From Candidatus Gottesmanbacteria bacterium (lineage in GTDB: Bacteria; Patescibacteriota; Microgenomatia; 2-02-FULL-39-11), in the NCBI GenBank assembly GCA_016186795.1, contig JACPKY010000002.1, positions 529,044 through 593,043 of the forward strand: a DNA stretch of 64,000 nt. The letters run 5' to 3'. The first letter of the stretch is position 1. Every line of letters starts with the position of its first letter. Below, piece after piece: positions 15,877-56,241 of the stretch. The position numbers and the translations under genes are program-made. The notes beneath the pieces are model-generated. The model worked only from the letters and a program-made list of their open reading frames with translations. It was not told where the DNA came from and ran no database searches.

Positions 15877-17253
15877 TTAGTACTTGGGACGAATGACCTT
15901 GCTGGTCACCTTGTCCTTGGTGATGTCGCCGTAAGGCAGTTCAAGATATCCATCCTTGAGCTCGCACGTCAGCGTGCGGGGACCACCGGCAAGCGGTACA
16001 TCAATACCTTCACTTCCCGTGCCGAATTTGACGCCCTTTGCGATGGTACCATCCTTTTTGGTGACGTCGCACGAAAATCCGCGACCAGTGGGCCAGAACG
16101 CCATCCCGAGTCCGCTTTGATTCGCGGTCCTATAGCCCCCTTCTTCATCCCAGGGCCAGACCGTGATTTTGTATTTACCGGTCCCGGTAATGACAGGCTT
16201 GAGACAAACCGGAACATCGAGGGTGGCATCACCGGAAAGCGGCTCGAAGAGCCAGAGCGCGCTCCAGGCACACGGCTGCGCTTCCTGGGAGCTATGGGTA
16301 ATGAGCCATTTCCCATCGCGATCGTCTTTTTGGAATGTCCCGCCCGCAATGAGCTGGTTGGGGACGCGTTCAAGCGATACATACCCGCCCGTGACATCCA
16401 AGGTAATGAACAGAATCTTTGTCTCGCCGGGTTTGATGTCAACTGGGATGCTTTCGGTGACTTCTTCAGTTCCGAGCATCGCGCCGACACCCGTCAATCC
16501 AAAGTGTACGTCACCACTGCTCACGTTTTTTACCGTGATCACAATGGCCTCCATGCCTGACACGTTCAATCTCGTGCATTCAGCCCATTGAGGGAACGTA
16601 CCTTGTTCGACAATCTTCCCGCTCTCAATCCGCGTCACGAGTGGCTTGTATTTGAGAATCCAGGTGAAGACCGTCGGGTCGTTGCACCGGTCATTATTTG
16701 TCGCATAGACCAGCTCAAAGAACCCGTCGGATAGCTTCTTGAACTCTGTCGCGAAAAACTCTTTGCCCGCCGTGACGTAGCCGTCGCTGTCCGTCTCGCC
16801 CTGTTGTTCGACCCACGGCGCATTGCCACCAGATGCCGGAGCCGGCGTTTCGGTCGGTTTCGGCGGCGCCGTGGTTTCGGTCGGCGGTGGTTCATTGCTG
16901 GGCGTTCCCGTCGGCACGGTCGTTGAAGTCATCGCGATGACCGTGGACGTCACCGCTGGCGGCTCTTTAGTCGCTGTCGCCGCGGGTGGCGGATTCGTTG
17001 CCGTAGCCGCGGGCGGGACCGCTGTTGCCGCTGCAGGCAAGGTTTCCGTCGCCACAACCGCTGGCGGGGTTTCCGTGGCTGCGGGCGGCGGATTCGTTGC
17101 CGTAGCCGCGGGCGCGCTGGTTGCCGCTGCAACGGTTGTCGGAGTCGCGCGGCGAGACGTTGCTGGCGCAAGCGCACATCCAACTGCCACTGACGCAAGC
17201 AAGAAAAGGAGCAATCCTGCGATCGCCCCTGGCAAATTGATTCGAATTTTCAC
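15877..17253 (-). CDS. GC-rich island: putative lipoprotein with a Thr/Pro/Ala-rich repeat linker and a C-terminal domain of unknown function
   Basis: GTG start (VKIRINLPGAIAGLLLFLLASVAVGC) is preceded by AGGAGGAGA. A lipobox-like VAVGC is present, then a duplicated ATATNPPPAAT linker, then a roughly 300-aa domain with no recognised motif. Local GC in sampled windows is about 60%, far above the window average. Confidence 0.45.
   Translation of the reverse strand: MKIRINLPGAIAGLLLFLLASVAVGCALAPATSRRATPTTVAAATSAPAATATNPPPAATETPPAVVATETLPAAATAVPPAATATNPPPAATATKEPPAVTSTVIAMTSTTVPTGTPSNEPPPTETTAPPKPTETPAPASGGNAPWVEQQGETDSDGYVTAGKEFFATEFKKLSDGFFELVYATNNDRCNDPTVFTWILKYKPLVTRIESGKIVEQGTFPQWAECTRLNVSGMEAIVITVKNVSSGDVHFGLTGVGAMLGTEEVTESIPVDIKPGETKILFITLDVTGGYVSLERVPNQLIAGGTFQKDDRDGKWLITHSSQEAQPCAWSALWLFEPLSGDATLDVPVCLKPVITGTGKYKITVWPWDEEGGYRTANQSGLGMAFWPTGRGFSCDVTKKDGTIAKGVKFGTGSEGIDVPLAGGPRTLTCELKDGYLELPYGDITKDKVTSKVIRPKY
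16930..17165. repeat. Imperfect DNA tandem repeat encoding the (PPAATATNPPPAAT)-type linker
   Basis: ggcggattcgttgccgtagccgcgggcg occurs twice within about 100 bp, embedded in GC-rich low-complexity coding sequence. Confidence 0.5.
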
Positions 17254-17267
17254 TTGTTTATCTCCTC

Positions 17268-17870
17268 CTACTTCAAGCCGCTCAACCAAGTATTTAGCTT
17301 GGCATCATCGGCTTCCATCAAACCGCGTACAATCTTTTCCGCTTTCACGCGGTCGCCGCGGAAAATTGTCAGAAGGCTGATATCCGGTTGTGCAAGCTCT
17401 CTGACGAGACCCCACTGATGTGGATCCATTGCCGCGATGACCTTCGCCTTGGCGATTTCCATCCCGGCGAGCGCGAACAATGTCGCGTTCTTTGTCGCAT
17501 CAATCTCCTTGGCAAGTCCAGCGAGGAACGTCAATTTCGCCGGCCCGACTCCTTTGAACGCTTTGGGTAATTCGATGAGTTCATCAAGGGAAACGCCTTG
17601 TTTCTTGATTTTTTCGATAAACTCAACGACCTCCGCCACCAACTGCGGATCAAGACCCGTCGCCGCGCTGGCGCGAATTGCCATTTCCGTTGCAATCAGG
17701 GCAAGGACGAACCCAGCCACTCCCACCAACGCGGTGTAAAAGTAGCCGGTGCCCACGAGGTCATTTTCGACCTCATACGCCGAGATTTGGGTGGCAAAAA
17801 GCCATGACGCGAGTAGCCCAACCACCGCGGACAGCCCAACAGGAAGAACTAAACTTCGTAACACTTTCAT
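17268..17870 (-). CDS. GC-rich island: two-TM membrane-anchored protein of unknown function
   Basis: ATG start is preceded by GGGAGGAAAAATC. Two N-terminal TM helices are followed by a roughly 130-aa Ala/Leu/Lys-rich domain. No recognised motif. Confidence 0.45.
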   Translation of the reverse strand: MKVLRSLVLPVGLSAVVGLLASWLFATQISAYEVENDLVGTGYFYTALVGVAGFVLALIATEMAIRASAATGLDPQLVAEVVEFIEKIKKQGVSLDELIELPKAFKGVGPAKLTFLAGLAKEIDATKNATLFALAGMEIAKAKVIAAMDPHQWGLVRELAQPDISLLTIFRGDRVKAEKIVRGLMEADDAKLNTWLSGLK

Positions 17871-30799: not shown

Positions 30800-33490
30800 T
30801 TAACTTGGCAGTTCCGGATAATGACAACGTTTCCACTTAACCGGCTTTCCATTTGCATCCGTTTTTCCACACCAGCATGGATCGTTTCGGCCAAGCTTTT
30901 TTGAGGAGCCTAACGGTTTTTCTTCTTTTTGCCGTTGTTCTTTTACAGATTCTGACATAGCTGTTTGTTCCTTCTGGAGCGCTGCAAGTTGGTCTGGTGC
31001 AAGTTGCACCTGTACTTTAAAGATCCTATGGACGATTTCGTAATCAATTCCCGAAATCAATCGTTCAAACATTGAAAATGCCTCGTTTTTATACTCAACA
31101 AGAGGATTAAGATGTCCATATCCTCGAAGGCCGATTCCCTCCCGAAGATCATCGATGCTATCTAAATGATCCATCCAGAAGTTATCAACAACCGAGAGGG
31201 CCACCCATTTCTCAACCTGTCTCATAACTTCTGTACCTAGCTGTTTTTCACGCTGTGCATACATATCTTGGGTTAGTTTTGTAAAAAAGTCAGATATCTC
31301 AGAAGATGACTTCAGCTGCTGAAGTTGAACAATTAACTGTTTTTGAGAATTTTGATCAAATGGAATTATGGAAACAAACTCTGTAACAAGTTTTTCTCTT
31401 TCTTCATCAGAAGGTGCATCTGCTGCTACTATTCCGGTTATCATCTGTATTTGTTTTTCCAGTTTTTCCAAAAATATCCCTTTTAAATCTTCGCCCAAAA
31501 CTATCTTTTTCCTTAGACCATAGATAATTTCTCGCTGCTTATTTAAAACATCATCATATTCAACCAAATGCTTTCGAGTATCAAAGTGGAATCCTTCTAC
31601 TTTCACCTGTGCTTGTTCAATCGATCTTGTAACCATCGCATGTTCCAACGGTACATCTTCTGGAAGTTTAAAAAATGTCATAAGCTTTGCAACCTGCTCA
31701 CCACCAAAAAGTCTCATAATATCATCATTGAGTGCCACGTAAAATCGTGCTGCTCCAGGATCACCTTGCCTTCCGCTTCTTCCTCGAAGTTGGTTATCAA
31801 TTCGACGGGACTCATGCCTCTCTGTACCAATAACATAAAGGCCACCCAAGGAAACAACTTCGTCGTGATTTTTCTTCCATATCTCATAGGCTTTTTTATA
31901 CTCGGATGCATCCTTAGCCTTTTCCTTCACCGGTGGTGCTCCACCAAGGATGATATCAACACCGCGACCAGCCATATTGGTGGCAACCGTCACCGCTCCT
32001 TTCCCTCCTGCATTTGCTATAATTTGTGCTTCCTTTTCGTGATTTTTTGCGTTTAATAGTTCATGCCGTACGCCCTTCTTGGTTAATAGGTCGGAAAGGA
32101 ATTCATTTTTCTCAATAGAGGTTGTACCTACCAAAATCGGTTGTCCCTTTTCATGTGCCAATGCTATGTCTTCAGTAACTGCGTTAAATTTTGCTTGGAA
32201 CGTCTTATAGACCATATCAGGATAATCCTTCCTGATCATAGGCTTATTGGTAGGAATCACAATAACGTCAAGCTTGTATATCTTATGGAATTCCTCAGCT
32301 TCTGTTGCTGCTGTTCCTGTCATTCCTGCTAACTTCTCATACATGCGGAAGTAGTTTTGCAGTGACACTGTGGCAAGTGTCCTTGATTCTTGCTGAATAG
32401 GTACCCCTTCTTTTGCTTCGATAGCTTGATGCAAACCCTCAGAAAATCTTCTCCCTGTTAGCATGCGACCAGTAAACTCATCAACAATGACAACCTGTCC
32501 ATCTCGTACCACATATTCTTTGTCTTTTCTAAAAAGTGTCATAGCTTTCAACGCTGCTTCGATATGATGAACAGTTGAAAAGTCTTTCTCATAGAGATTC
32601 TCAACATTGAGCGATTTCTCTACTTTCATAATACCGTCTTCCGTCAGATGAGCGGTATGAAGCTTCTCATCGACAACAAATTCTTTCTCCGAAGTCAAAG
32701 TCGATACAATTTTTGCATAATCGTAATATTTATCTGTAGGGGAAGTATCGGGAGCAGAAATGATATGTGGAGTTCTCGCCTCGTCAATAAGAACCGAGTC
32801 TACTTCATCGACAATTGCGTAGTGAAATCCTCTCTGGACCAGCTGGGAAACATCAGATACCATGTTATCTCGAAGGTAGTCGAAACCAAATTCACTATTG
32901 ATACCATAGGTAATATCTGCTTTATAAGCTTCTTTTCGGGAAACTTGACGAAGATGAACTAACCGCCAATCCGAGGTATTCTCATCAGTATGTTCTGCAT
33001 CAAAGAGAAATGATTGATCGTGAATAATAGCAGATGTAGTAAGTCCCAAAAGATGAAAAATAGGCCCCATCCATCCAGCATCACGTCTTGCTAGATAATC
33101 ATTTACTGTTACCAAATGAACACCTTTTCCGGTCAAAGCATTTAAGTACAATGCAGGTATAGCTGAAAGAGTTTTCCCCTCACCTGTTTTTTGCTCTGCA
33201 ACCGCGCCCCGATGAAGAGCGATTGCAGCAACAAGCTGTACGTCGTAATGTCTTTCGCCAATTGTCCGTTTTGCTGCCTCTCGCACCAGTGCATACGCTT
33301 CTGGCAAAATATCATTAAGGGTTTCTCCCTGTTGGAGACGCTCCTTAAATTGAAGAGTTTTCTTTGGGAAATCATTTATGGGAATCTTGGAAACGTCACC
33401 CTCGAGTGAGTTAATTTTCGAAACAACAGGCGCAATTTGGGAAAGTTCCCGCTTATTTACGTCAAATAGCTTTCCGAATATGTTTAGCAT
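30800..33490 (-). CDS. secA: Preprotein translocase ATPase SecA
   Basis: Walker A AEQKTGEGKT, DEAD-like motor domains and a C-terminal Zn finger CWCGK...C-H-Y. 896 aa. Confidence 0.9.
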   Translation of the reverse strand: MLNIFGKLFDVNKRELSQIAPVVSKINSLEGDVSKIPINDFPKKTLQFKERLQQGETLNDILPEAYALVREAAKRTIGERHYDVQLVAAIALHRGAVAEQKTGEGKTLSAIPALYLNALTGKGVHLVTVNDYLARRDAGWMGPIFHLLGLTTSAIIHDQSFLFDAEHTDENTSDWRLVHLRQVSRKEAYKADITYGINSEFGFDYLRDNMVSDVSQLVQRGFHYAIVDEVDSVLIDEARTPHIISAPDTSPTDKYYDYAKIVSTLTSEKEFVVDEKLHTAHLTEDGIMKVEKSLNVENLYEKDFSTVHHIEAALKAMTLFRKDKEYVVRDGQVVIVDEFTGRMLTGRRFSEGLHQAIEAKEGVPIQQESRTLATVSLQNYFRMYEKLAGMTGTAATEAEEFHKIYKLDVIVIPTNKPMIRKDYPDMVYKTFQAKFNAVTEDIALAHEKGQPILVGTTSIEKNEFLSDLLTKKGVRHELLNAKNHEKEAQIIANAGGKGAVTVATNMAGRGVDIILGGAPPVKEKAKDASEYKKAYEIWKKNHDEVVSLGGLYVIGTERHESRRIDNQLRGRSGRQGDPGAARFYVALNDDIMRLFGGEQVAKLMTFFKLPEDVPLEHAMVTRSIEQAQVKVEGFHFDTRKHLVEYDDVLNKQREIIYGLRKKIVLGEDLKGIFLEKLEKQIQMITGIVAADAPSDEEREKLVTEFVSIIPFDQNSQKQLIVQLQQLKSSSEISDFFTKLTQDMYAQREKQLGTEVMRQVEKWVALSVVDNFWMDHLDSIDDLREGIGLRGYGHLNPLVEYKNEAFSMFERLISGIDYEIVHRIFKVQVQLAPDQLAALQKEQTAMSESVKEQRQKEEKPLGSSKKLGRNDPCWCGKTDANGKPVKWKRCHYPELPS

Positions 33491-33524: not shown

Positions 33525-34151
33525 TCACCCTGACAGGAGGATAAGTCGACTCATAGGGAATTCTTGAAGTATATGGATGGTTCCGAAGATCTCCTTACAC
33601 CTCGATAGAAACGCTTCAAACTCCTTGGGATCTTCAGAAAAGAATTGACTATTATAGAGAACTTTCCCTCTCGATTTCAAACGTTTTTTTATGTGTCGCA
33701 AAAATGTCAATGTTCTGGCTTTTTGAGGATTCCGGCGTCCGATATAAAGATCGACAATAACAAGATTAAATTTCTGTCTTTGTTTTTTTATCCACTCAAT
33801 TGCGTCCGCACAGATAAGATTTCCCTGAATATTAAATTCCGTTCGGGCAATTTCAATCATTTTCGGATCGATATCAACCGCGATGATTTCAATATTTGGA
33901 AACGCCCTCTCCAGAAAATAAACAACAGTCCCTCCTCCAATACCAAGGATCAAACATTTTTGAATTTTGAATTTTGAATTTTGAATTATTGTAATTGCCT
34001 TCTTCCACATATCGTAGGTAAACCCACCGCTATGCGTTACACCACCTGCGCGTAACGTATTTTTTCCTGCAAATTGGAATAAATCAATTGGCCCATGGAC
34101 AAAGGAGTGAAACGTCGATTTTTTGGGTAGAAGACCACCCCGGAGTTTCAT
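33525..34151 (-). CDS. Class I SAM-dependent methyltransferase, spermidine-synthase-like fold
   Basis: LILGIGGGTVVYFL (motif I) and IIAVDIDPKMIEIAR. Confidence 0.5.
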   Translation of the reverse strand: MKLRGGLLPKKSTFHSFVHGPIDLFQFAGKNTLRAGGVTHSGGFTYDMWKKAITIIQNSKFKIQKCLILGIGGGTVVYFLERAFPNIEIIAVDIDPKMIEIARTEFNIQGNLICADAIEWIKKQRQKFNLVIVDLYIGRRNPQKARTLTFLRHIKKRLKSRGKVLYNSQFFSEDPKEFEAFLSRCKEIFGTIHILQEFPMSRLILLSG

Positions 34152-34157
34152 AGAAGA

Positions 34158-36278
34158 TTATAATCCCAATTCACCTGATATACCTTGCATTGATGCAAGG
34201 CAGATTTCGATAAATTTATCTAGGGGTATCCCCAACGTATCTTGGCATTTTTCTATCCTTTTCCTATCAACTCCGGAAGCAAATGAGGTATTTCCCCATT
34301 TTTTCTTAACCGATTCCAAAGTTACCTGTGCCAATTTTTTATCCGGACGAACAAGAGCTGTTGCCGTTATAAGACCTGATAATTCATCGCATGTAAAGAT
34401 TGCCCAGTCGGCCCGTGTTTGTGGTTCTCTCCCTTTTCCAGTCATTTCAAAATTATGAGAAAGAATGATGGTAATGAGCTCTTTACTCACATGGCGTTTT
34501 TCCAATTCCTTGGAAAGAACAATGGTATGCGTTTTCGGATCGTTTTGCGTTTTTTCCCAGTCAGCATCATGCAGAAGTCCAACAAGTCCCCACAACTCCT
34601 CATCTTCGCCAAAGTGTTTTGCTAAAGCTCTCATTTCCGCTTCCACTGCTAACATATGTTTGACAAGATTTGGATTTTTGATCCAGTCTTTGACAAGAGT
34701 GAGAGCTTCTTCTCTTGTTATATTTAAATTTTCCGATTTGGAGGTTTTGGAAGAAAGAGTAGATTTCAGAGATTTTTTTTCTGTGCGAGGCAGGTCTTCC
34801 TTTTCTTTTTTCGAAATATGAAGTGGCCGAAGTGTAGGGAACGCAATAACGTCTTTAATGTTTTTCGCATCGGTTAGTAGCATAACAAGTCTATCAACCC
34901 CAATCCCCAATCCGCATGTTGGTGGAAACCCATGCTCAATTGCCTCAAGATAATCAGAATCAGTCTGGTGTGCTTCCTCAAAACCTGATGCTTCTCGTTT
35001 TTTTTCTTCAATAAAACGCTGTCTCAAATCAACAGGATCATTGAGTTCCGTATAATTATTGCCTAGTTCCGAACCAAAAGCGAAGAATTCAAAACGCTGT
35101 GTAAACCGTGGATCAGGACATTTTTTCGCAAGAGGCGAAACTTCAATCGGAAAATCATAAATAATAGTAGGCTGCACTAACTTTTTTTCAATCGTCTGTT
35201 CAAAAGCAAACGCCATGACCTCACCTATTGTGTGACTCTTGTCTAAGTCTTTCAGTTTCTCGGAAGGAATTTCCATCGAGTGAACCGCTTTTTTTGCTTC
35301 TTCAAGTGTATTCCATTCCAAGGGATTTACGGACGTATATTTTTGAATAGACTCAACAAGTGTATGACGCTGCCAAGGACGTTTGACATCCATCTCTATT
35401 CCTTGATAGGTAAATTTTGTCGTTTGTAAGACTTTTTGGGCAACATATTCGATGAGCTCTTCAGTAATATCCATCCCGTAAAAATAGTCCTCATATGCAA
35501 TCTGAGCTTCAAACATCGTAAACTCAGGATTATGCTCGTGGTCAACGCCTTCGTTTCTGAATACTTTGGTTATCTCGAATACTTTCTCAAATCCGCCCAC
35601 AATGAGGCGTTTGAGATACATCTCATCTGAGATTCGCAAATAAAAATCTGTATCAAGCGCATTGTGATGGGTGACAAAAGGGTGGGCAAATCCTCCGCCG
35701 TAAACAGCTTGAAGAGTGGGAGTCTCAACTTCGATAAACCCTTTTTTTGTCAGAAATTCTCGCATTGATTCAACAACTGCTCCACGTACTTTCAATGTTT
35801 CTCGTACAACAGGATTTAGGAGCATATCCAAATACCTCTTCCTGTATCGCTCCTCAATATCTTTCAGCCCATGCCATTTATCAGGAAGAGGTCTGGTGGT
35901 CTTCGTCAGAGGAGAAAATTCGTTAACCGTAATAGTAATCTCTCCGGCCTGCGTTTTCCCAACGATTCCACTTGCAGAAAGGAAATCACCAATATCAAGA
36001 AGCTCTACAATAGTAAATTTATCCTGAGGAATGATATCGGATTTAAAAAGAAGTTGGATTTTTCCGCTTTCATCAACGAGATCTCCAAAAAGTATTTTCC
36101 CGTGCCCCCGAAGTGCTATGAGTCGTCCGGCAACGGAAACACTCTCCCCATCCATTTCTCTAGCATCGGAAATTGACTGGACTCTCTGCACTTTTGAGGG
36201 ATATGGATTTACACCAAGTTTTTTTAGTCGTTCTAATTTTTTCAGCCGTTCTGCTTTTAGGTCATCAATTGTTGCCAT
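34158..36278 (-). CDS. lysS: Lysine--tRNA ligase (class II) fused to a C-terminal HD-domain phosphohydrolase
   Basis: N-terminal OB fold, then a class II core with motif 3 GLGIGVDRLVMLL. The C-terminal ~200 aa carry HD-domain residues (HMLAVEAEMRALAKH...LLHDADW). Confidence 0.85.
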   Translation of the reverse strand: MATIDDLKAERLKKLERLKKLGVNPYPSKVQRVQSISDAREMDGESVSVAGRLIALRGHGKILFGDLVDESGKIQLLFKSDIIPQDKFTIVELLDIGDFLSASGIVGKTQAGEITITVNEFSPLTKTTRPLPDKWHGLKDIEERYRKRYLDMLLNPVVRETLKVRGAVVESMREFLTKKGFIEVETPTLQAVYGGGFAHPFVTHHNALDTDFYLRISDEMYLKRLIVGGFEKVFEITKVFRNEGVDHEHNPEFTMFEAQIAYEDYFYGMDITEELIEYVAQKVLQTTKFTYQGIEMDVKRPWQRHTLVESIQKYTSVNPLEWNTLEEAKKAVHSMEIPSEKLKDLDKSHTIGEVMAFAFEQTIEKKLVQPTIIYDFPIEVSPLAKKCPDPRFTQRFEFFAFGSELGNNYTELNDPVDLRQRFIEEKKREASGFEEAHQTDSDYLEAIEHGFPPTCGLGIGVDRLVMLLTDAKNIKDVIAFPTLRPLHISKKEKEDLPRTEKKSLKSTLSSKTSKSENLNITREEALTLVKDWIKNPNLVKHMLAVEAEMRALAKHFGEDEELWGLVGLLHDADWEKTQNDPKTHTIVLSKELEKRHVSKELITIILSHNFEMTGKGREPQTRADWAIFTCDELSGLITATALVRPDKKLAQVTLESVKKKWGNTSFASGVDRKRIEKCQDTLGIPLDKFIEICLASMQGISGELGL

Positions 36279-36326: not shown

Positions 36327-36989
36327 TCAGTTCAAATCTAGTTTATTGAATACAAGGTAATCTACTACTCCTTCCAGATCAGGTATGGGATTATCAAGCC
36401 ATGTATGAGGTGCTCCTATAATCTCCTGTGCGAAACGCCTCACAACATCCGGATGCTCTATCCCCATTCTAGCAAATGCTATTGCCCACCTGTGTTCAAG
36501 ATTCCCATGCTGTAGTGCGTATTCACGGCCAAGCCGTGCTAAGTCTTTCACCAGTTCTGGATACGCATAGTGATCTTTGGTAAATCCCCAAAGATTATCT
36601 AAAAGGGAAGTAAAATGTCCTTTCCCCATTATTCCTGTAAGTCCCCCGGTAGGTAAACGATTATTTCCATTTCCATAACTTCCGTTATCCGTTGAATGGA
36701 CCCCAGATGCATCTTGTCTCATTGCTAATTGAATACGTTGCGGAAGCGATTCAGGGTCCCCATAACGAAATGAACTTCCACTTAAAAGTAGGTATGCCCT
36801 GTCAGGGACATTGATGCCAAACCGACGTGCTTCATCTAATTTCGGTCGAGTTCCGTTCCTTTCACCTGTATATCTGGGATGAACAAGTTCTGTATTTATT
36901 GCAAAACCATATGTATCAGAAAGTTCATGGATTTGCTCAACAATTGGTATCGCTAAATGATTATCATCATGCACATGAAGAAAGCACAT
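36327..36989 (-). CDS. Hypothetical protein (His/Asp/Gly/Arg-rich; possible metal-dependent hydrolase)
   Basis: N-terminal FLHVHDDNH resembles HxH-type metal-binding starts. Composition and GC (about 43-45%) differ from neighbouring genes. Confidence 0.35.
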   Translation of the reverse strand: MCFLHVHDDNHLAIPIVEQIHELSDTYGFAINTELVHPRYTGERNGTRPKLDEARRFGINVPDRAYLLLSGSSFRYGDPESLPQRIQLAMRQDASGVHSTDNGSYGNGNNRLPTGGLTGIMGKGHFTSLLDNLWGFTKDHYAYPELVKDLARLGREYALQHGNLEHRWAIAFARMGIEHPDVVRRFAQEIIGAPHTWLDNPIPDLEGVVDYLVFNKLDLN

Positions 36990-37000
36990 AACTTGAGCTC

Positions 37001-37666
37001 TTAAAATTTCATCAAGAACATAGTAAATATTGACTCATATTGTTCTGGAGTTCCACCATTTGTTGCAGGCAGTCCTAACCCTGTAATTATGGGGCGGTCA
37101 AAACGGCTATTAATATCTGCGATTCGGCCAATAAAGCGACGTATTTCTTTGGGATCTGTTTCCGTTGCTTGTTCTAGACTTGCTCGTATATCAACTTCCT
37201 GATCGTGCGGGGCTATTGCAACTATTTGTTCTAAAATATCCCCCAATTCATCAGCAGATCGTCGACGACGACCACCGTTTTCTGATGCATTTCCATACAA
37301 ATGAAGTCTTGGCCCAATTCGAAATCCTAACGCTGCATCATCAACCGTCATCATCGTATGCTGAGCAATTTGATGGTCCACATGATTTTCTCTGCCGATT
37401 TCTAATAAACCATGGTTTAAATGCGCAGCAGTTGGTCCTGACCTGGAGTTTTGCAGTTCCATAAGCATCGTTGGGTCTTGTGGAAGATCATACTTGATGA
37501 AAGGAACTGCCCAATCAACTACCATATGACACGTTGGAGGTAAATCAAAATCACGAATGGTATACCCCTCAGGATAATACTGAGGCGTTTGCAGCCCCTC
37601 TCGAATTCCTATTGTTGATCCATTTTCTGATGCATTCATATTATTTCCACAATCCCAGTAGTACAC
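37001..37666 (-). CDS. Hypothetical protein, partner of 36327-36989
   Basis: Its stop lies 11 nt before the next gene's ATG, and it shares the same atypical composition. No recognised motif. Confidence 0.35.
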   Translation of the reverse strand: MYYWDCGNNMNASENGSTIGIREGLQTPQYYPEGYTIRDFDLPPTCHMVVDWAVPFIKYDLPQDPTMLMELQNSRSGPTAAHLNHGLLEIGRENHVDHQIAQHTMMTVDDAALGFRIGPRLHLYGNASENGGRRRRSADELGDILEQIVAIAPHDQEVDIRASLEQATETDPKEIRRFIGRIADINSRFDRPIITGLGLPATNGGTPEQYESIFTMFLMKF

Positions 37667-37925: not shown

Positions 37926-38390
37926 TCAAGTGATTCTTAGAATTTTATAGATTATTTTACCAGCTGGAGCCTCCACTTCTACTTTTTCACCAACTTTTTT
38001 TCCGAGAAGCGCTTTCCCAAGTGGAGATGAGTGAGAGATTTTTTTCTCAGAAGGATTTGCTTCCCATTCACCAACAATCGTAAATTCTTCCTTCTTCCCG
38101 TCAATATGAAGCGTCACTTTGCATCCGACATCGACTTTTGATCTCGAATGTCCTGAGATTACTTGTGCATCATTGATAACTTTCTCAAGCTCGGCAATCC
38201 GGCCATCAATGAATGCCAAATCTTGTTTGGCTGCAGCATATTCGCTATTTTCTGATAAATCTCCCTGTCCACGAGCATATGCAAGCCTCGAGACAACATC
38301 AGGACGCTTCTTATTCAGAAGCTCGTCGTATTCGGTTTTCAGCTCTGCCAACCCTTCGGGGGTAAGCACCACTTTTTGTGTTTGATCCAT
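37926..38390 (-). CDS. greA: Transcription elongation factor GreA
   Basis: N-terminal coiled coil (LTPEGLAELKTEYDELL) and C-terminal FKBP-like domain. 154 aa. Confidence 0.85.
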   Translation of the reverse strand: MDQTQKVVLTPEGLAELKTEYDELLNKKRPDVVSRLAYARGQGDLSENSEYAAAKQDLAFIDGRIAELEKVINDAQVISGHSRSKVDVGCKVTLHIDGKKEEFTIVGEWEANPSEKKISHSSPLGKALLGKKVGEKVEVEAPAGKIIYKILRIT

Positions 38391-38518: not shown

Positions 38519-38592
38519 GCCCCCATCGTCTAGCGGCCTAGGACGGCAGGTTCTCAACTTGCAGATCAGGGGTTCGAATCCCCTTGGGGGTA
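38519..38592 (+). tRNA. tRNA-Glu (anticodon CUC)
   Basis: Manual cloverleaf: acceptor GCCCCCA/TGGGGGT with G1-U72, D-arm TCTAGCGGCCTAGGA, anticodon stem GCAGG/CTTGC, loop TTCTCAA, T-arm AGGGG-TTCGAAT-CCCCT. Overall it is very similar to E. coli tRNA-Glu. CCA is not encoded. Confidence 0.85.
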
Positions 38593-38595
38593 CTT

Positions 38596-56098: not shown

Positions 56099-56169
56099 TG
56101 CGGGATCGTCTAATGGTAGGACACGTCCCTCTGGAGGATGGTATCTTGGTCCGAATCCAAGTCCCGCAG
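56099..56169 (+). tRNA. tRNA-Gln (anticodon CUG)
   Basis: Manual fold: acceptor TGCGGGA/TCCCGCA with U1-A72 and discriminator G73 (bacterial tRNA-Gln identity elements), D-stem GTCT/GGAC, anticodon stem CGTCC/GGATG, loop CTCTGGA, T-arm CTTGG-TCCGAAT-CCAAG. The T-loop has C in place of the usual U55. Confidence 0.7.
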
Positions 56170-56241
56170 CTCGCAGCCTTTCTATGAAAGGCTAAGATAC
56201 CAATTGTGTCATCGAGTCATCGAATCGAGAGAATAACCTTT

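What the first reader, a model, noticed from the sequence alone, without database searches (positions are those of the whole stretch)
34158..36278. LysRS fused to an HD-domain hydrolase: possible coupling of Ap4A synthesis and hydrolysis
A complete class II LysRS (through motif 3, GLGIGVDRLVMLL) continues in frame for another ~200 aa that carry an HD motif (H...H...HD...D). LysRS is the main cellular source of diadenosine tetraphosphate (Ap4A), and stand-alone HD proteins of the YqeK type hydrolyse Ap4A. A covalent fusion of the two activities would be a neat self-limiting alarmone module. Alternatively the HD domain could act on mischarged or adenylated intermediates.
Basis: partly seen in the sequence, partly recalled or inferred. 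Interest (0 to 1): 0.55.

Follow-up and report, generated by a model that had tools for sequence, protein, structure and literature searches.

The report
Lysyl-tRNA synthetase fused to HD hydrolase
A candidate-phyla bacterium makes its lysine-charging enzyme as one chain with an intact metal-dependent HD hydrolase of unknown substrate, and this pairing recurs with both unrelated classes of lysyl-tRNA synthetase, so the two activities are functionally tied even though Ap4A breakdown is still only the leading guess.

Summary
Window 34158-36278 (minus strand) is one 706-aa ORF: a complete class II LysRS, an unconserved disordered linker of about 35 residues, and a 187-aa HD domain with every metal ligand intact. 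It is not a read-through artefact. Separate sequencing runs give the identical junction, the former HD start codon is now ATA, and about 40 close plus at least 20 distant fused homologues exist.

The fusion derives from a lysS-HD gene pair with a 4-nt ATGA overlap that is typical of Patescibacteria. The same HD gene also sits directly behind class I LysRS, which is not homologous to class II (11 loci, some with the same ATGA overlap). It also occurs N-terminal to LysRS, and behind B3_4, DUF2000 or HAD modules in longer LysRS chains.

The HD family is widespread and uncharacterised. It is not YqeK: it fails the curated YqeK model, has different ligand spacing, lacks two YqeK phosphate clamps and matches YqeK structures only at TM about 0.5. 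It does have the same six-ligand two-metal site.

Ap4A/Ap4N hydrolysis remains the best single guess (about 0.4). A tRNA-directed role is the main rival. The searchable literature does not describe this architecture.

The parts
34158..36278 (-). Single 706-aa ORF encoding the LysRS-linker-HD fusion (stop codon at 34158-34160)
   Evidence: ORF. (domains). (identical sequence in independent assemblies).
35907..36140 (-). OB-fold anticodon-binding domain of class II LysRS (residues 47-124)
   Evidence: PF01336, E 4.9e-14.
34830..35858 (-). Class II catalytic core (residues 141-483), including motif 3 GLGIGVDRLVMLL (residues 456-468, 34875-34913)
   Evidence: PF00152, E 2.6e-85; lysS models above their curated cut-offs; sequence read directly.
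34722..34823 (-). Inter-domain linker (residues 486-519, LHISKKEKEDLPRTEKKSLKSTLSSKTSKSENLN). It is hydrophilic, unconserved and predicted disordered.
   Evidence: linkers of 9-40 aa with no conservation across 38 fused homologues; pLDDT below 50 for residues 481-514; no canonical in-frame start codon in this stretch.
34719..34721 (-). Codon ATA (Ile520) at the position of the ancestral ATG start of the stand-alone HD gene
   Evidence: relatives L003, L005 and L024 have ATG here, overlapping the lysS TGA stop as ATGA; a few fused homologues still have Met here, and most have Ile, Phe or Leu.
34161..34721 (-). HD-domain phosphohydrolase (residues 520-706), a member of a widespread uncharacterised family of about 185 aa
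   Evidence: 2409 homologues, the best 120 all stand-alone at 184-192 aa and 51-61% identity. AlphaFold2 pLDDT 95.8, all-helical. HD-fold neighbours.
34386..34658 (-). Span holding the two-metal ligand set: H541 (34656-34658), H570-D571-A572-D573 (34560-34571), H584 (34527-34529), H608 (34455-34457), D631 (34386-34388)
   Evidence: invariant in 53 family members; invariant in 38 fused proteins, with position 631 as Asp or Glu; same ligand pattern as YqeK H21/H50/D51/H83/H109/D127.
33525..34151 (-). Downstream same-strand gene, 6 nt after the fusion's stop: a class I SAM methyltransferase resembling spermidine synthase. It is probably in the same operon, and it lies in the same downstream order (ahead of SecA) in relatives L003 and L004.
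30800..33490 (-). secA, which together with greA (37926-38390) brackets the conserved greA...lysS-HD...methyltransferase-secA neighbourhood

Best explanation
This is a real, conserved bifunctional gene in a Gottesmanbacteria-like member of the Patescibacteria (CPR). A fully competent class II lysyl-tRNA synthetase is joined by a flexible, disordered tether of about 35 residues to a catalytically intact two-metal HD phosphohydrolase. The fusion arose from the lysS-HD operon pair typical of this lineage, where the two genes overlap as ATGA. The lysS stop was lost, the frames were merged, and the HD start codon decayed to ATA. These steps are shown. Recurrent fusion in both orders, and translational coupling to both non-homologous LysRS classes, show that selection keeps the HD enzyme co-produced with LysRS at about 1:1. 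This is shown by comparative genomics. The inferred part is the substrate. I think the HD most likely hydrolyses a nucleotide by-product of the LysRS active site, namely the dinucleoside polyphosphates Ap4A/Ap4N (perhaps Ap3A) formed when Lys-AMP reacts with ATP/NTP. That would be the job YqeK does in Firmicutes, done here by a different HD family. No fixed inter-domain interface is predicted, so the tether would give co-expression, stoichiometry and proximity, not substrate channelling.
For: Real and conserved. Origin from adjacent genes: (ATGA overlaps in L003, L005 and L024; ATA at the homologous codon in the window). Catalytic competence: all ligands invariant; pLDDT 95.8. Selected coupling with LysRS: fused, adjacent and reversed-order forms; class I LysRS with the HD directly downstream in L007 and in 10 of 80 metagenome loci, four of them with an ATGA overlap and all with intact ligands; fused HDs in at least 5 separate branches of NJ trees. 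Ap4A specifically: LysRS is the archetypal Ap4A source (PMC7705103; PMC13627108). The only PDB sequences the family profile hits are YqeK-family structures (E 9e-4 to 0.1). It has the same six-ligand binuclear site, with identical spacing of 29 residues from the first His to HD. All the catalytically active enzymes among the top fold neighbours cleave dinucleotide-type substrates: PgpH on c-di-AMP, HD-GYP on c-di-GMP, YqeK on Ap4A. Outside the CPR the family's scattered neighbours lean towards nucleotide metabolism, such as IMPDH, Ham1, CYTH, HAD and DeoC. Flexible tether: (pTM 0.53, linker pLDDT below 50).
Against: No member reaches the YqeK model's cut-off (best E 6.5e-4, 24 of 53 members). 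Similarity to YqeK covers only the first 55-75 residues. Foldseek TM to YqeK is about 0.5, no better than to RNA- or tRNA-associated HD domains, and RNase Y and Trm56-fused HD models are hit more often than YqeK. At the positions aligned to YqeK phosphate clamps R18 and K54 the family has Leu20 and Tyr/Trp56. Coupling to class I LysRS is awkward for an Ap4A rationale, because to my knowledge that enzyme needs tRNA to form Lys-AMP. In multi-domain proteins the HD follows tRNA_bind, B3_4 or DUF2000 modules, which points to a tRNA-centred context. Most family members in other phyla have no LysRS link. There is no biochemical data for any member.
Confidence: 0.4

Rival explanations
1. The HD acts on tRNA-Lys or on its charged or damaged forms. 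It could be a phosphodiesterase or phosphatase that heals 2',3'-cyclic-phosphate or 3'-phosphate ends, as the HD domain of CCA-adding enzymes does, or another RNA-directed step. It would be part of a tRNA-Lys quality-control toolkit that CPR LysRSs carry alongside B3_4 and DUF2000 modules.
For: What the two non-homologous LysRS classes share is lysine, ATP and tRNA-Lys, and the HD is coupled to both. It occurs in series after tRNA_bind-B3_4 (P0132), B3_4 (P0168, P0427, L092) and DUF2000 (P0242, P0431). The HD domain of the GlyRS beta subunit, which approaches the tRNA acceptor arm (PMC8464048), is as good a fold match (TM 0.52-0.62) as any enzyme. RNase Y and Trm56-fused HD models are the most frequent specific NCBIfam hits. 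The C-terminal half has an unusually rich conserved basic cluster at K647, K648, K659, K660 and R672.
Against: There is no recognisable RNA-binding domain in the 185-aa stand-alone protein. The NCBIfam hits are weak and below cut-off. The GlyRS HD is catalytically dead, whereas this one is strictly conserved. There is no reason yet why end-healing should be specific to tRNA-Lys. Neighbours in other phyla are not tRNA genes.
Confidence: 0.25
2. The HD is a general nucleotide housekeeping or salvage phosphohydrolase, such as an NTP/dNTP pyrophosphohydrolase or a nucleotidase. It sits in the lysS operon only for expression reasons, and fusion is a by-product of overlapping genes in compact CPR genomes.
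For: The family is widespread (more than 600 matches among GTDB species representatives) and mostly unlinked to LysRS outside the CPR. A 4-nt overlap makes accidental fusion easy. Some neighbours are involved in nucleotide metabolism. There are HAD-HD combinations (P0148).
Against: Neutral drift does not explain renewed coupling to class I LysRS, the reversed HD-LysRS order (P0166), fused HDs on several separate tree branches, and HD retention at the end of long multi-module LysRS chains.
Confidence: 0.15
3. The HD hydrolyses aminoacyl-adenylates, either released non-cognate aa-AMP or Lys-AMP. That would be proofreading or clean-up of the mixed anhydride in trans, analogous to what HIT/Hint proteins do with LysRS-made Lys-AMP.
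For: Both LysRS classes make aminoacyl-adenylates, which fits the link to both classes. The HD co-occurs with putative post-transfer editing modules without replacing them, which suggests a complementary step.
Against: To my knowledge no HD enzyme is known to do this. There is no structural or sequence evidence specific to this substrate.
Confidence: 0.1
4. Artefact: a sequencing or assembly read-through of two separate genes, or a decaying pseudogene.
For: The linker DNA contains A-rich homopolymer runs. The HD's closest homologues, the stand-alone genes directly downstream of lysS in relatives, are separate from lysS.
Against: The junction is identical in assemblies from separate runs. An 81%-identical relative has the same 706-aa architecture, and there are dozens of other fusions. 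The start codon has decayed to ATA, and no alternative in-frame start precedes Met542, which lies after catalytic His541. All catalytic and LysRS motifs are intact.
Confidence: 0.02

Closest known systems
YqeK (COG1713/TIGR00488), the symmetrical Ap4A/Ap4N hydrolase of Firmicutes
   Same: A small, all-helical HD-domain protein of about 190 aa. It has the same six-ligand binuclear site (H, HD, H, H, D), with identical spacing of 29 residues from the first His to HD. These are the only PDB sequences the family profile detects. It is functionally tied to aminoacyl-tRNA synthetase chemistry, because LysRS makes Ap4A.
   Different: The family scores below the curated model cut-off. Sequence similarity is confined to the N-terminal third. 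The spacing from HD to the third His is 13 residues against 32. The positions aligned to clamps R18 and K54 are Leu and Tyr/Trp. There is an extra invariant Asp (HDxD). Foldseek TM is only about 0.5, whereas true YqeKs superpose at about 1 Å. The genomic context is lysS.
PgpH HD domain (c-di-AMP phosphodiesterase, PDB 4S1B/4S1C) and HD-GYP (Bd1817)
   Same: These are the best fold matches (TM 0.60, E about 1e-3). They are two-metal HD phosphodiesterases acting on dinucleotides.
   Different: Identity is 16-18%. PgpH is a membrane protein with a 7TM receptor module, and HD-GYP has its own GYP motif and usually a receiver domain. Neither feature is present here.
HD domain of the bacterial GlyRS beta subunit (PDB 7EIV, 7YSE)
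   Same: It is the only well-studied precedent for an HD-fold domain built into an aminoacyl-tRNA synthetase. It is a comparable fold match (TM 0.52-0.62), and it lies near the tRNA acceptor arm (PMC8464048).
   Different: In GlyRS the catalytic His-Asp is replaced by Ser-Lys and no hydrolase activity is known. Here every ligand is invariant. The GlyRS domain is an integral internal domain, whereas this one is a tethered, separable module that also exists as a free protein.
Other bifunctional LysRS proteins, for example LysX (LysRS-MprF, NF002821), and aaRSs with appended editing domains (AlaX/AlaRS/ThrRS, PheRS B3/4)
   Same: A LysRS body with an extra enzymatic module that uses or polices a product of the synthetase. 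The module also exists free-standing.
   Different: The appended module is an HD phosphohydrolase. It is neither a lipid-lysyl transferase nor a known aminoacyl-tRNA deacylase. I found no described LysRS-HD architecture in the searchable literature.

Membership tests
Class II lysyl-tRNA synthetase (lysS, TIGR00499 / NF001756) | Full-length match above the curated equivalog cut-off | tested here: met
   TIGR00499 scores 551.3 bits against a cut-off of 427.6, and NF001756 scores 590.9 against 468. Residues 7-485 cover model positions 3-487 of 488.
Class II lysyl-tRNA synthetase (lysS, TIGR00499 / NF001756) | N-terminal OB anticodon-binding domain plus a class II core with motif 3 | tested here: met
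   PF01336 at 47-124 and PF00152 at 141-483. Motif 3, GLGIGVDRLVMLL, is at 456-468, with G456, G460, D462 and R463 invariant in 38 homologues.
Class II lysyl-tRNA synthetase (lysS, TIGR00499 / NF001756) | Lysylation of tRNA-Lys | not testable with these tools
   Needs an aminoacylation assay.
HD superfamily (PF01966 / HDIG TIGR00277) | Domain model above the gathering score | tested here: met
   PF01966 scores 31.2-33.5 bits (cut-off 22), and HDIG scores 34.5-36.9 (cut-off 27.6).
HD superfamily (PF01966 / HDIG TIGR00277) | Conserved H...HD...D metal ligands on an all-helical fold | tested here: met
   (H541, H570, D571, H584, H608, D631). (helical model, pLDDT 95.8). (HD-fold neighbours).
YqeK Ap4A hydrolase (COG1713 / TIGR00488) | Match to the curated family model above its cut-off | tested here: not met
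   no hit for the window tail at E up to 1; only 24 of 53 family members hit, best E 6.5e-4, far below an equivalog-level score.
YqeK Ap4A hydrolase (COG1713 / TIGR00488) | Binuclear site with six ligands (H21, H50, D51, H83, H109, D127 in GtYqeK) | tested here: met
   the equivalents are H541, H570, D571, H584, H608 and D631. The spacing from HD to the third His differs (13 residues against 32).
YqeK Ap4A hydrolase (COG1713 / TIGR00488) | Tetraphosphate clamps R18, K54 and R133 | tested here: not met
   the position aligned to R18 (His minus 3) is an invariant Leu, and the position aligned to K54 (Asp plus 3) is Tyr or Trp. R133 could not be aligned. Other conserved basic residues exist (K540, K647, K648, K659, K660, R672), but their placement is unverified.
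YqeK Ap4A hydrolase (COG1713 / TIGR00488) | Family-level structural identity (YqeKs superpose at 0.7-1.0 Å) | tested here: not met
   TM 0.48-0.54 and rmsd 7-11 Å to 2OGI, 8JK9, 8WMY and 2O08.
YqeK Ap4A hydrolase (COG1713 / TIGR00488) | Symmetrical hydrolysis of Ap4A to 2 ADP | not testable with these tools
   Needs an enzyme assay. Failing family membership does not exclude the same activity.
PgpH-type c-di-AMP phosphodiesterase | HD domain attached to a 7TM receptor (7TMR-HDED) module | tested here: not met
   no such domains. The fold match is only TM 0.60 at 16-18% identity.
GlyRS-beta-type non-catalytic HD domain | Loss of the catalytic His-Asp doublet (Ser-Lys in E. coli) | tested here: not met
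   (PMC8464048), against where HD is invariant.

The most novel reading that the evidence does not exclude
Patescibacterial LysRSs of both unrelated classes carry a modular, exchangeable clean-up toolkit made of B3_4, DUF2000, HAD and this HD domain. If so, the HD family would be a previously unrecognised third bacterial family of dinucleoside-polyphosphate (Ap4A/Np4A) hydrolases, physically wired to the enzyme that makes the alarmone. The B3_4 and DUF2000 modules would be the first post-transfer editing domains found for LysRS, an enzyme considered to lack one.
Probability: 0.3. Interest if true: 0.8.

Novelty: new variant of a known kind. Interest (0 to 1): 0.6.

Why it matters
LysRS is the textbook source of Ap4A and the textbook synthetase without an appended editing or accessory hydrolase. 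Here a strictly conserved metal hydrolase is repeatedly welded or translationally coupled to it. This happens in both gene orders and with both evolutionarily unrelated LysRS classes, which is about as strong a comparative-genomic signal of functional coupling as one can get.

If the HD degrades Ap4A/Np4A, it would define a new Ap4A hydrolase family for the large part of the bacterial and archaeal tree where ApaH and YqeK are not the known Ap4A hydrolases. It would also be a natural case of an alarmone synthase tethered to its hydrolase. If instead it acts on tRNA-Lys or adenylates, it would reveal a new kind of synthetase-linked quality control.

Either way, it gives an uncharacterised family with thousands of members (2409 hits, more than 600 in GTDB representatives) a short, directly testable list of substrates. 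Databases currently label these proteins simply 'lysine--tRNA ligase'.

Tried and rejected
1. Read-through or assembly artefact. Rejected: identical junction in independent assemblies, the start codon decayed to ATA, no internal start before Met542, and dozens of fused homologues.

2. YqeK membership. Rejected on the model score, ligand spacing, clamp residues and fold distance.

3. A rigid inter-domain interface or substrate channel. Not supported: the full-length AlphaFold2 model has pTM 0.53 and a linker pLDDT below 50. This was a monomer prediction only, and I could not inspect coordinates.

4. A single ancient fusion. My first impression from the 50%-identity representatives was that the window's fusion was an isolated recent event. 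One search corrected this by revealing close fused relatives (81% and 55-63% identity). NJ trees still place the window+P0402 HD beside stand-alone HDs and put other fusions on other branches. These trees have no support values, so the number of independent fusions is only suggestive. The reversed-order protein P0166 proves at least two events.

5. A conserved partner for the HD family outside the CPR. None was found: neighbours are heterogeneous, and eIF-1A downstream in three archaeal loci was not pursued.

6. Literature. No paper on LysRS-HD, COG2316 or LysRS-B3/4 fusions turned up in the searchable library. The original YqeK paper (PMC7186459) is not held.

7. Errors. One Pfam call failed because of bad coordinates, and two searches failed on term syntax.

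I could not test whether genomes carrying this HD lack YqeK, ApaH or Nudix Ap4A hydrolases, because only 64 kb of this genome and short flanks of the others were available.
Full report
**Observation.** The window holds a single ATG-initiated ORF at exactly 34158..36278 on the minus strand, 706 aa long.
- Pfam finds the OB anticodon-binding domain (47-124), the class II core (141-483, E 2.6e-85) and an HD domain (540-634, above the gathering score).
- NCBIfam scores residues 7-485 well above the curated lysine--tRNA ligase cut-offs. It finds an HDIG domain at 536-609 and no YqeK hit.
- Motif 3 (GLGIGVDRLVMLL) is residues 456-468. The chain then continues in frame for 238 residues.
The matches are far beyond chance: E 1e-177 for LysRS, and E 1e-67 to the closest HD homologues.

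**Is the fusion real?**
- The exact 706-aa protein is encoded on Logan contigs assembled from different sequencing runs, one of them seen in four samples. These contigs are 100% identical to the window over 3.0-3.7 kb spanning the junction.
- A word-indexed search with the whole protein finds a 706-aa relative at 81% identity. It also finds about 35 further clusters at 55-63% identity with 100% coverage, including a Candidatus Gottesmanbacteria entry named only 'lysyl-tRNA synthetase, class II'. In total, 41 of the best 119 other hits carry the HD.
- An exhaustive phmmer search over 1.84 billion cluster representatives adds at least 20 more full-length fusions at 36-46% identity.
- Across 38 aligned fusions, H541, H570, D571, D573, H584 and H608 are invariant, position 631 is Asp or Glu, and the LysRS motifs are intact.
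- The artefact hypothesis is rejected.

**How the fusion arose.**
- The 120 closest homologues of the tail alone are all stand-alone proteins of 184-192 aa. In the three I looked up, the gene lies directly behind a separate lysS of 492-509 aa, in the same greA...lysS-HD...methyltransferase-secA neighbourhood as the window.
- At those junctions the HD ATG overlaps the lysS TGA as ATGA.
- In the window the homologous codon is ATA (Ile520, 34719-34721). It is preceded by a 34-codon linker rich in Lys, Ser and Glu, and there is no canonical in-frame start until Met542, which lies after the first catalytic His. A functional HD can therefore only be made as part of the fusion.
- Linkers in the fused clade are 9-40 residues long and unconserved. 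A few fusions still have Met at the old start position.
- A full-length AlphaFold2 model gives two confident domains, a linker with pLDDT below 50 and pTM 0.53. That means a flexible tether with no predicted fixed interface.

**What the HD domain is.**
- The family alignment (53 sequences) has invariant H23, H52, D53, D55, H66, H90 and D113 in tail numbering, plus a conserved basic cluster.
- The AlphaFold2 model is all-helical with pLDDT 95.8.
- Foldseek against the PDB gives only moderate matches: PgpH HD (TM 0.60, E 9e-4), GlyRS beta-subunit HD (0.52-0.62), YqeK structures (about 0.5) and HD-GYP Bd1817.
- The family profile hits only YqeK-family chains among PDB sequences. The E-values are 9e-4 to 0.1, and the matches cover only the first 55-75 residues.
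- Against NCBIfam no member reaches any specific cut-off. Weak hits go to RNase Y (40 of 53 members), the HD of Trm56 fusions (30 of 53), YqeK (24 of 53, best E 6.5e-4) and TIGR00295.
- YqeK's ligands are H21, H50, D51, H83, H109 and D127, and its tetraphosphate clamps are R18, K54 and R133 (PMC13627108). This family shares the six-ligand pattern and the spacing from the first His to HD. It has 13 residues instead of 32 between HD and the third His, and it has Leu and Tyr/Trp at the positions aligned to R18 and K54.
- It is therefore a distinct, uncharacterised binuclear HD family, and not YqeK.
- It is very widespread. More than 600 matches were found among GTDB species representatives, spanning Patescibacteria, Chloroflexota, Bathyarchaeia, Thermoplasmata, Aminicenantes, Thermotogae, Desulfobacterota and others.

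**The link to LysRS.**
- Among the 80 best GTDB loci, 11 have class II lysS directly upstream on the same strand: three fused, six adjacent or overlapping, and two with one small ORF in between. All 11 are CPR-type genomes. The other phyla show no lysS within 3.5 kb and have heterogeneous neighbours.
- In L007 the gene 5 nt upstream of the HD is a class I LysRS (PF01921), which is not homologous to the class II enzyme.
- I then fetched 80 CPR metagenome loci of class I LysRS. Ten have this HD immediately downstream, four with the same ATGA overlap and all with the ligand set HHDDHHD. Thirty carry a B3_4 module. L092 reads class I LysRS-B3_4 followed by HD.
- P0166 has the reverse order, HD-LysRS.
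- Longer class II chains read LysRS-tRNA_bind-B3_4-HD (P0132), LysRS-B3_4-HD (P0168, P0427), LysRS-DUF2000-HD (P0242, P0431) and LysRS-HAD-HD (P0148).
- In NJ trees of HD domains, fused forms fall on at least five branches interleaved with free forms. The window plus P0402 sits next to a large stand-alone Gottesmanbacteria clade, and the HDs linked to class I LysRS nest within the same CPR clade. These trees have no support values and are only suggestive.
- Together these results show that selection, not inherited gene order alone, keeps this HD co-produced with LysRS.

**Mechanism.**
- Shown: a competent LysRS, a catalytically intact two-metal HD hydrolase, a flexible covalent tether, and strong evolutionary coupling.
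- Inferred: the substrate.
- I rank Ap4A/Ap4N hydrolysis first, at about 0.4. LysRS is the classical Ap4A source (PMC7705103), the nearest sequence relatives with structures are Ap4A hydrolases, and every catalytically active enzyme among the top fold neighbours cleaves a dinucleotide-type substrate.
- Against this ranking, the family fails every YqeK-specific test except the metal site. The class I LysRS link is also awkward, because to my knowledge that enzyme needs tRNA to form Lys-AMP, and I found no report that it makes Ap4A. The HD also keeps company with tRNA-directed modules.
- The main rival, at about 0.25, is an activity on tRNA-Lys or its 3' end. The fold similarity to the GlyRS beta HD, which approaches the acceptor arm (PMC8464048), is relevant here, although that domain is catalytically dead.
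- Lesser rivals are a generic nucleotide housekeeping enzyme sharing the operon (0.15) and hydrolysis of aminoacyl-adenylates (0.1).

**Comparison and novelty.**
- The protein is a bona fide class II LysRS and a bona fide HD-superfamily member. It may work like YqeK, but it is not a member of that family.
- The only established HD-fold domain inside a synthetase, in GlyRS beta, is non-catalytic and integral. LysX is the known bifunctional LysRS, but it carries a lipid-lysyl transferase.
- I found no paper describing LysRS-HD, or the LysRS-B3_4 and LysRS-DUF2000 architectures, in the searchable library. Databases name these proteins plain 'lysine--tRNA ligase'.
- I classify it as a new variant of a known kind: a synthetase with an appended accessory hydrolase.

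**Verdict.** I score interest at 0.6. The fusion itself is solid and common in one lineage. The cross-class coupling and the modular LysRS toolkit are surprising. A large orphan HD family now has a short list of testable substrates, but its function remains unproven.

Noticed in passing
P0121, P0122, P0137, P0150, P0155, P0448, P0475 and others; class I loci L092-L148 and P0292-P0390: CPR LysRSs of both classes carry other C-terminal modules. Class II carries DUF2000, B3_4 (the PheRS-beta editing-domain family), B3_4+DUF2000, tRNA_bind or HAD. Class I is fused to B3_4 (about 777 aa, common in Roizmanbacteria and Microgenomates; 30 of 80 loci). LysRS is generally regarded as having no editing domain, so these may be undescribed post-transfer editing modules for tRNA-Lys.
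   Followed up: partly
P0166 and cluster members P0391, P0392, P0397: A reversed architecture, with the HD domain at the N-terminus (1-179) and class II LysRS at 219-713. It is present on several contigs of up to 85 kb, and is an independent fusion in the opposite order.
   Followed up: partly
P0168: A 973-aa LysRS-B3_4-HD protein is labelled Promethearchaeota (Asgard archaeon) in NCBI. Either the architecture extends beyond the CPR or the contig is mis-binned.
   Followed up: no
L009:2959-3501 and L014:2871-3479: In two CPR genomes a small ORF resembling the 23S rRNA intervening-sequence protein (PF05635, a four-helix-bundle family) is inserted between lysS and the HD gene. In L009 it overlaps the HD start by 4 nt.
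   Followed up: no
L058, L063, L068: In three archaeal loci (Methanobacteriota and Thermoplasmat(a/ota) labels) the stand-alone HD gene is followed 3 nt later by a 120-aa eIF-1A homologue. This is another hint of a link to translation outside the CPR.
   Followed up: no
window 15877-17289 (minus strand): A GC-rich block (55.7% against about 40% background) coincides with a 470-aa ORF. Its N-terminal third is a low-complexity Ala/Pro/Thr-rich region behind a hydrophobic segment, so it is probably a secreted or surface protein. There is no rRNA or Rfam hit there.
   Followed up: partly
window 36327-36989 and 37001-37666 (minus strand): Two ORFs of about 220 aa lie directly upstream of the fusion. 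They have no Pfam hit and no similarity to each other. They are also present on the Logan contig L001, where relatives have a peptidase M20 (L005) or a 126-aa ORF (L003).
   Followed up: partly
L006-L008, L012, L014, L016, L017, L022, L024, L034, L045, L065: Many 'binchicken' MAG records titled 'uncultured Gammaproteobacteria' have CPR-like gene content and contigs or chromosomes of about 0.7-0.9 Mb. One is L007, whose class I LysRS is closest to Roizmanbacteria. The taxon labels in the record titles look unreliable.
   Followed up: no
window 38519-38593 and 56099-56170 (plus strand): tRNA-Glu(CTC) and tRNA-Gln(CTG) are the only RNA genes detected in the window. There is no tRNA-Lys gene near the LysRS fusion.
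   Followed up: yes
(NCBIfam hits of HD family members): Several family members give weak hits to phosphopentomutase models (deoB; 7 and 6 members) and to a DVU_1551-family NTP transferase model (8 members, best E 9e-7). This suggests related HD domains are fused to nucleotide-metabolism enzymes elsewhere.
   Followed up: no
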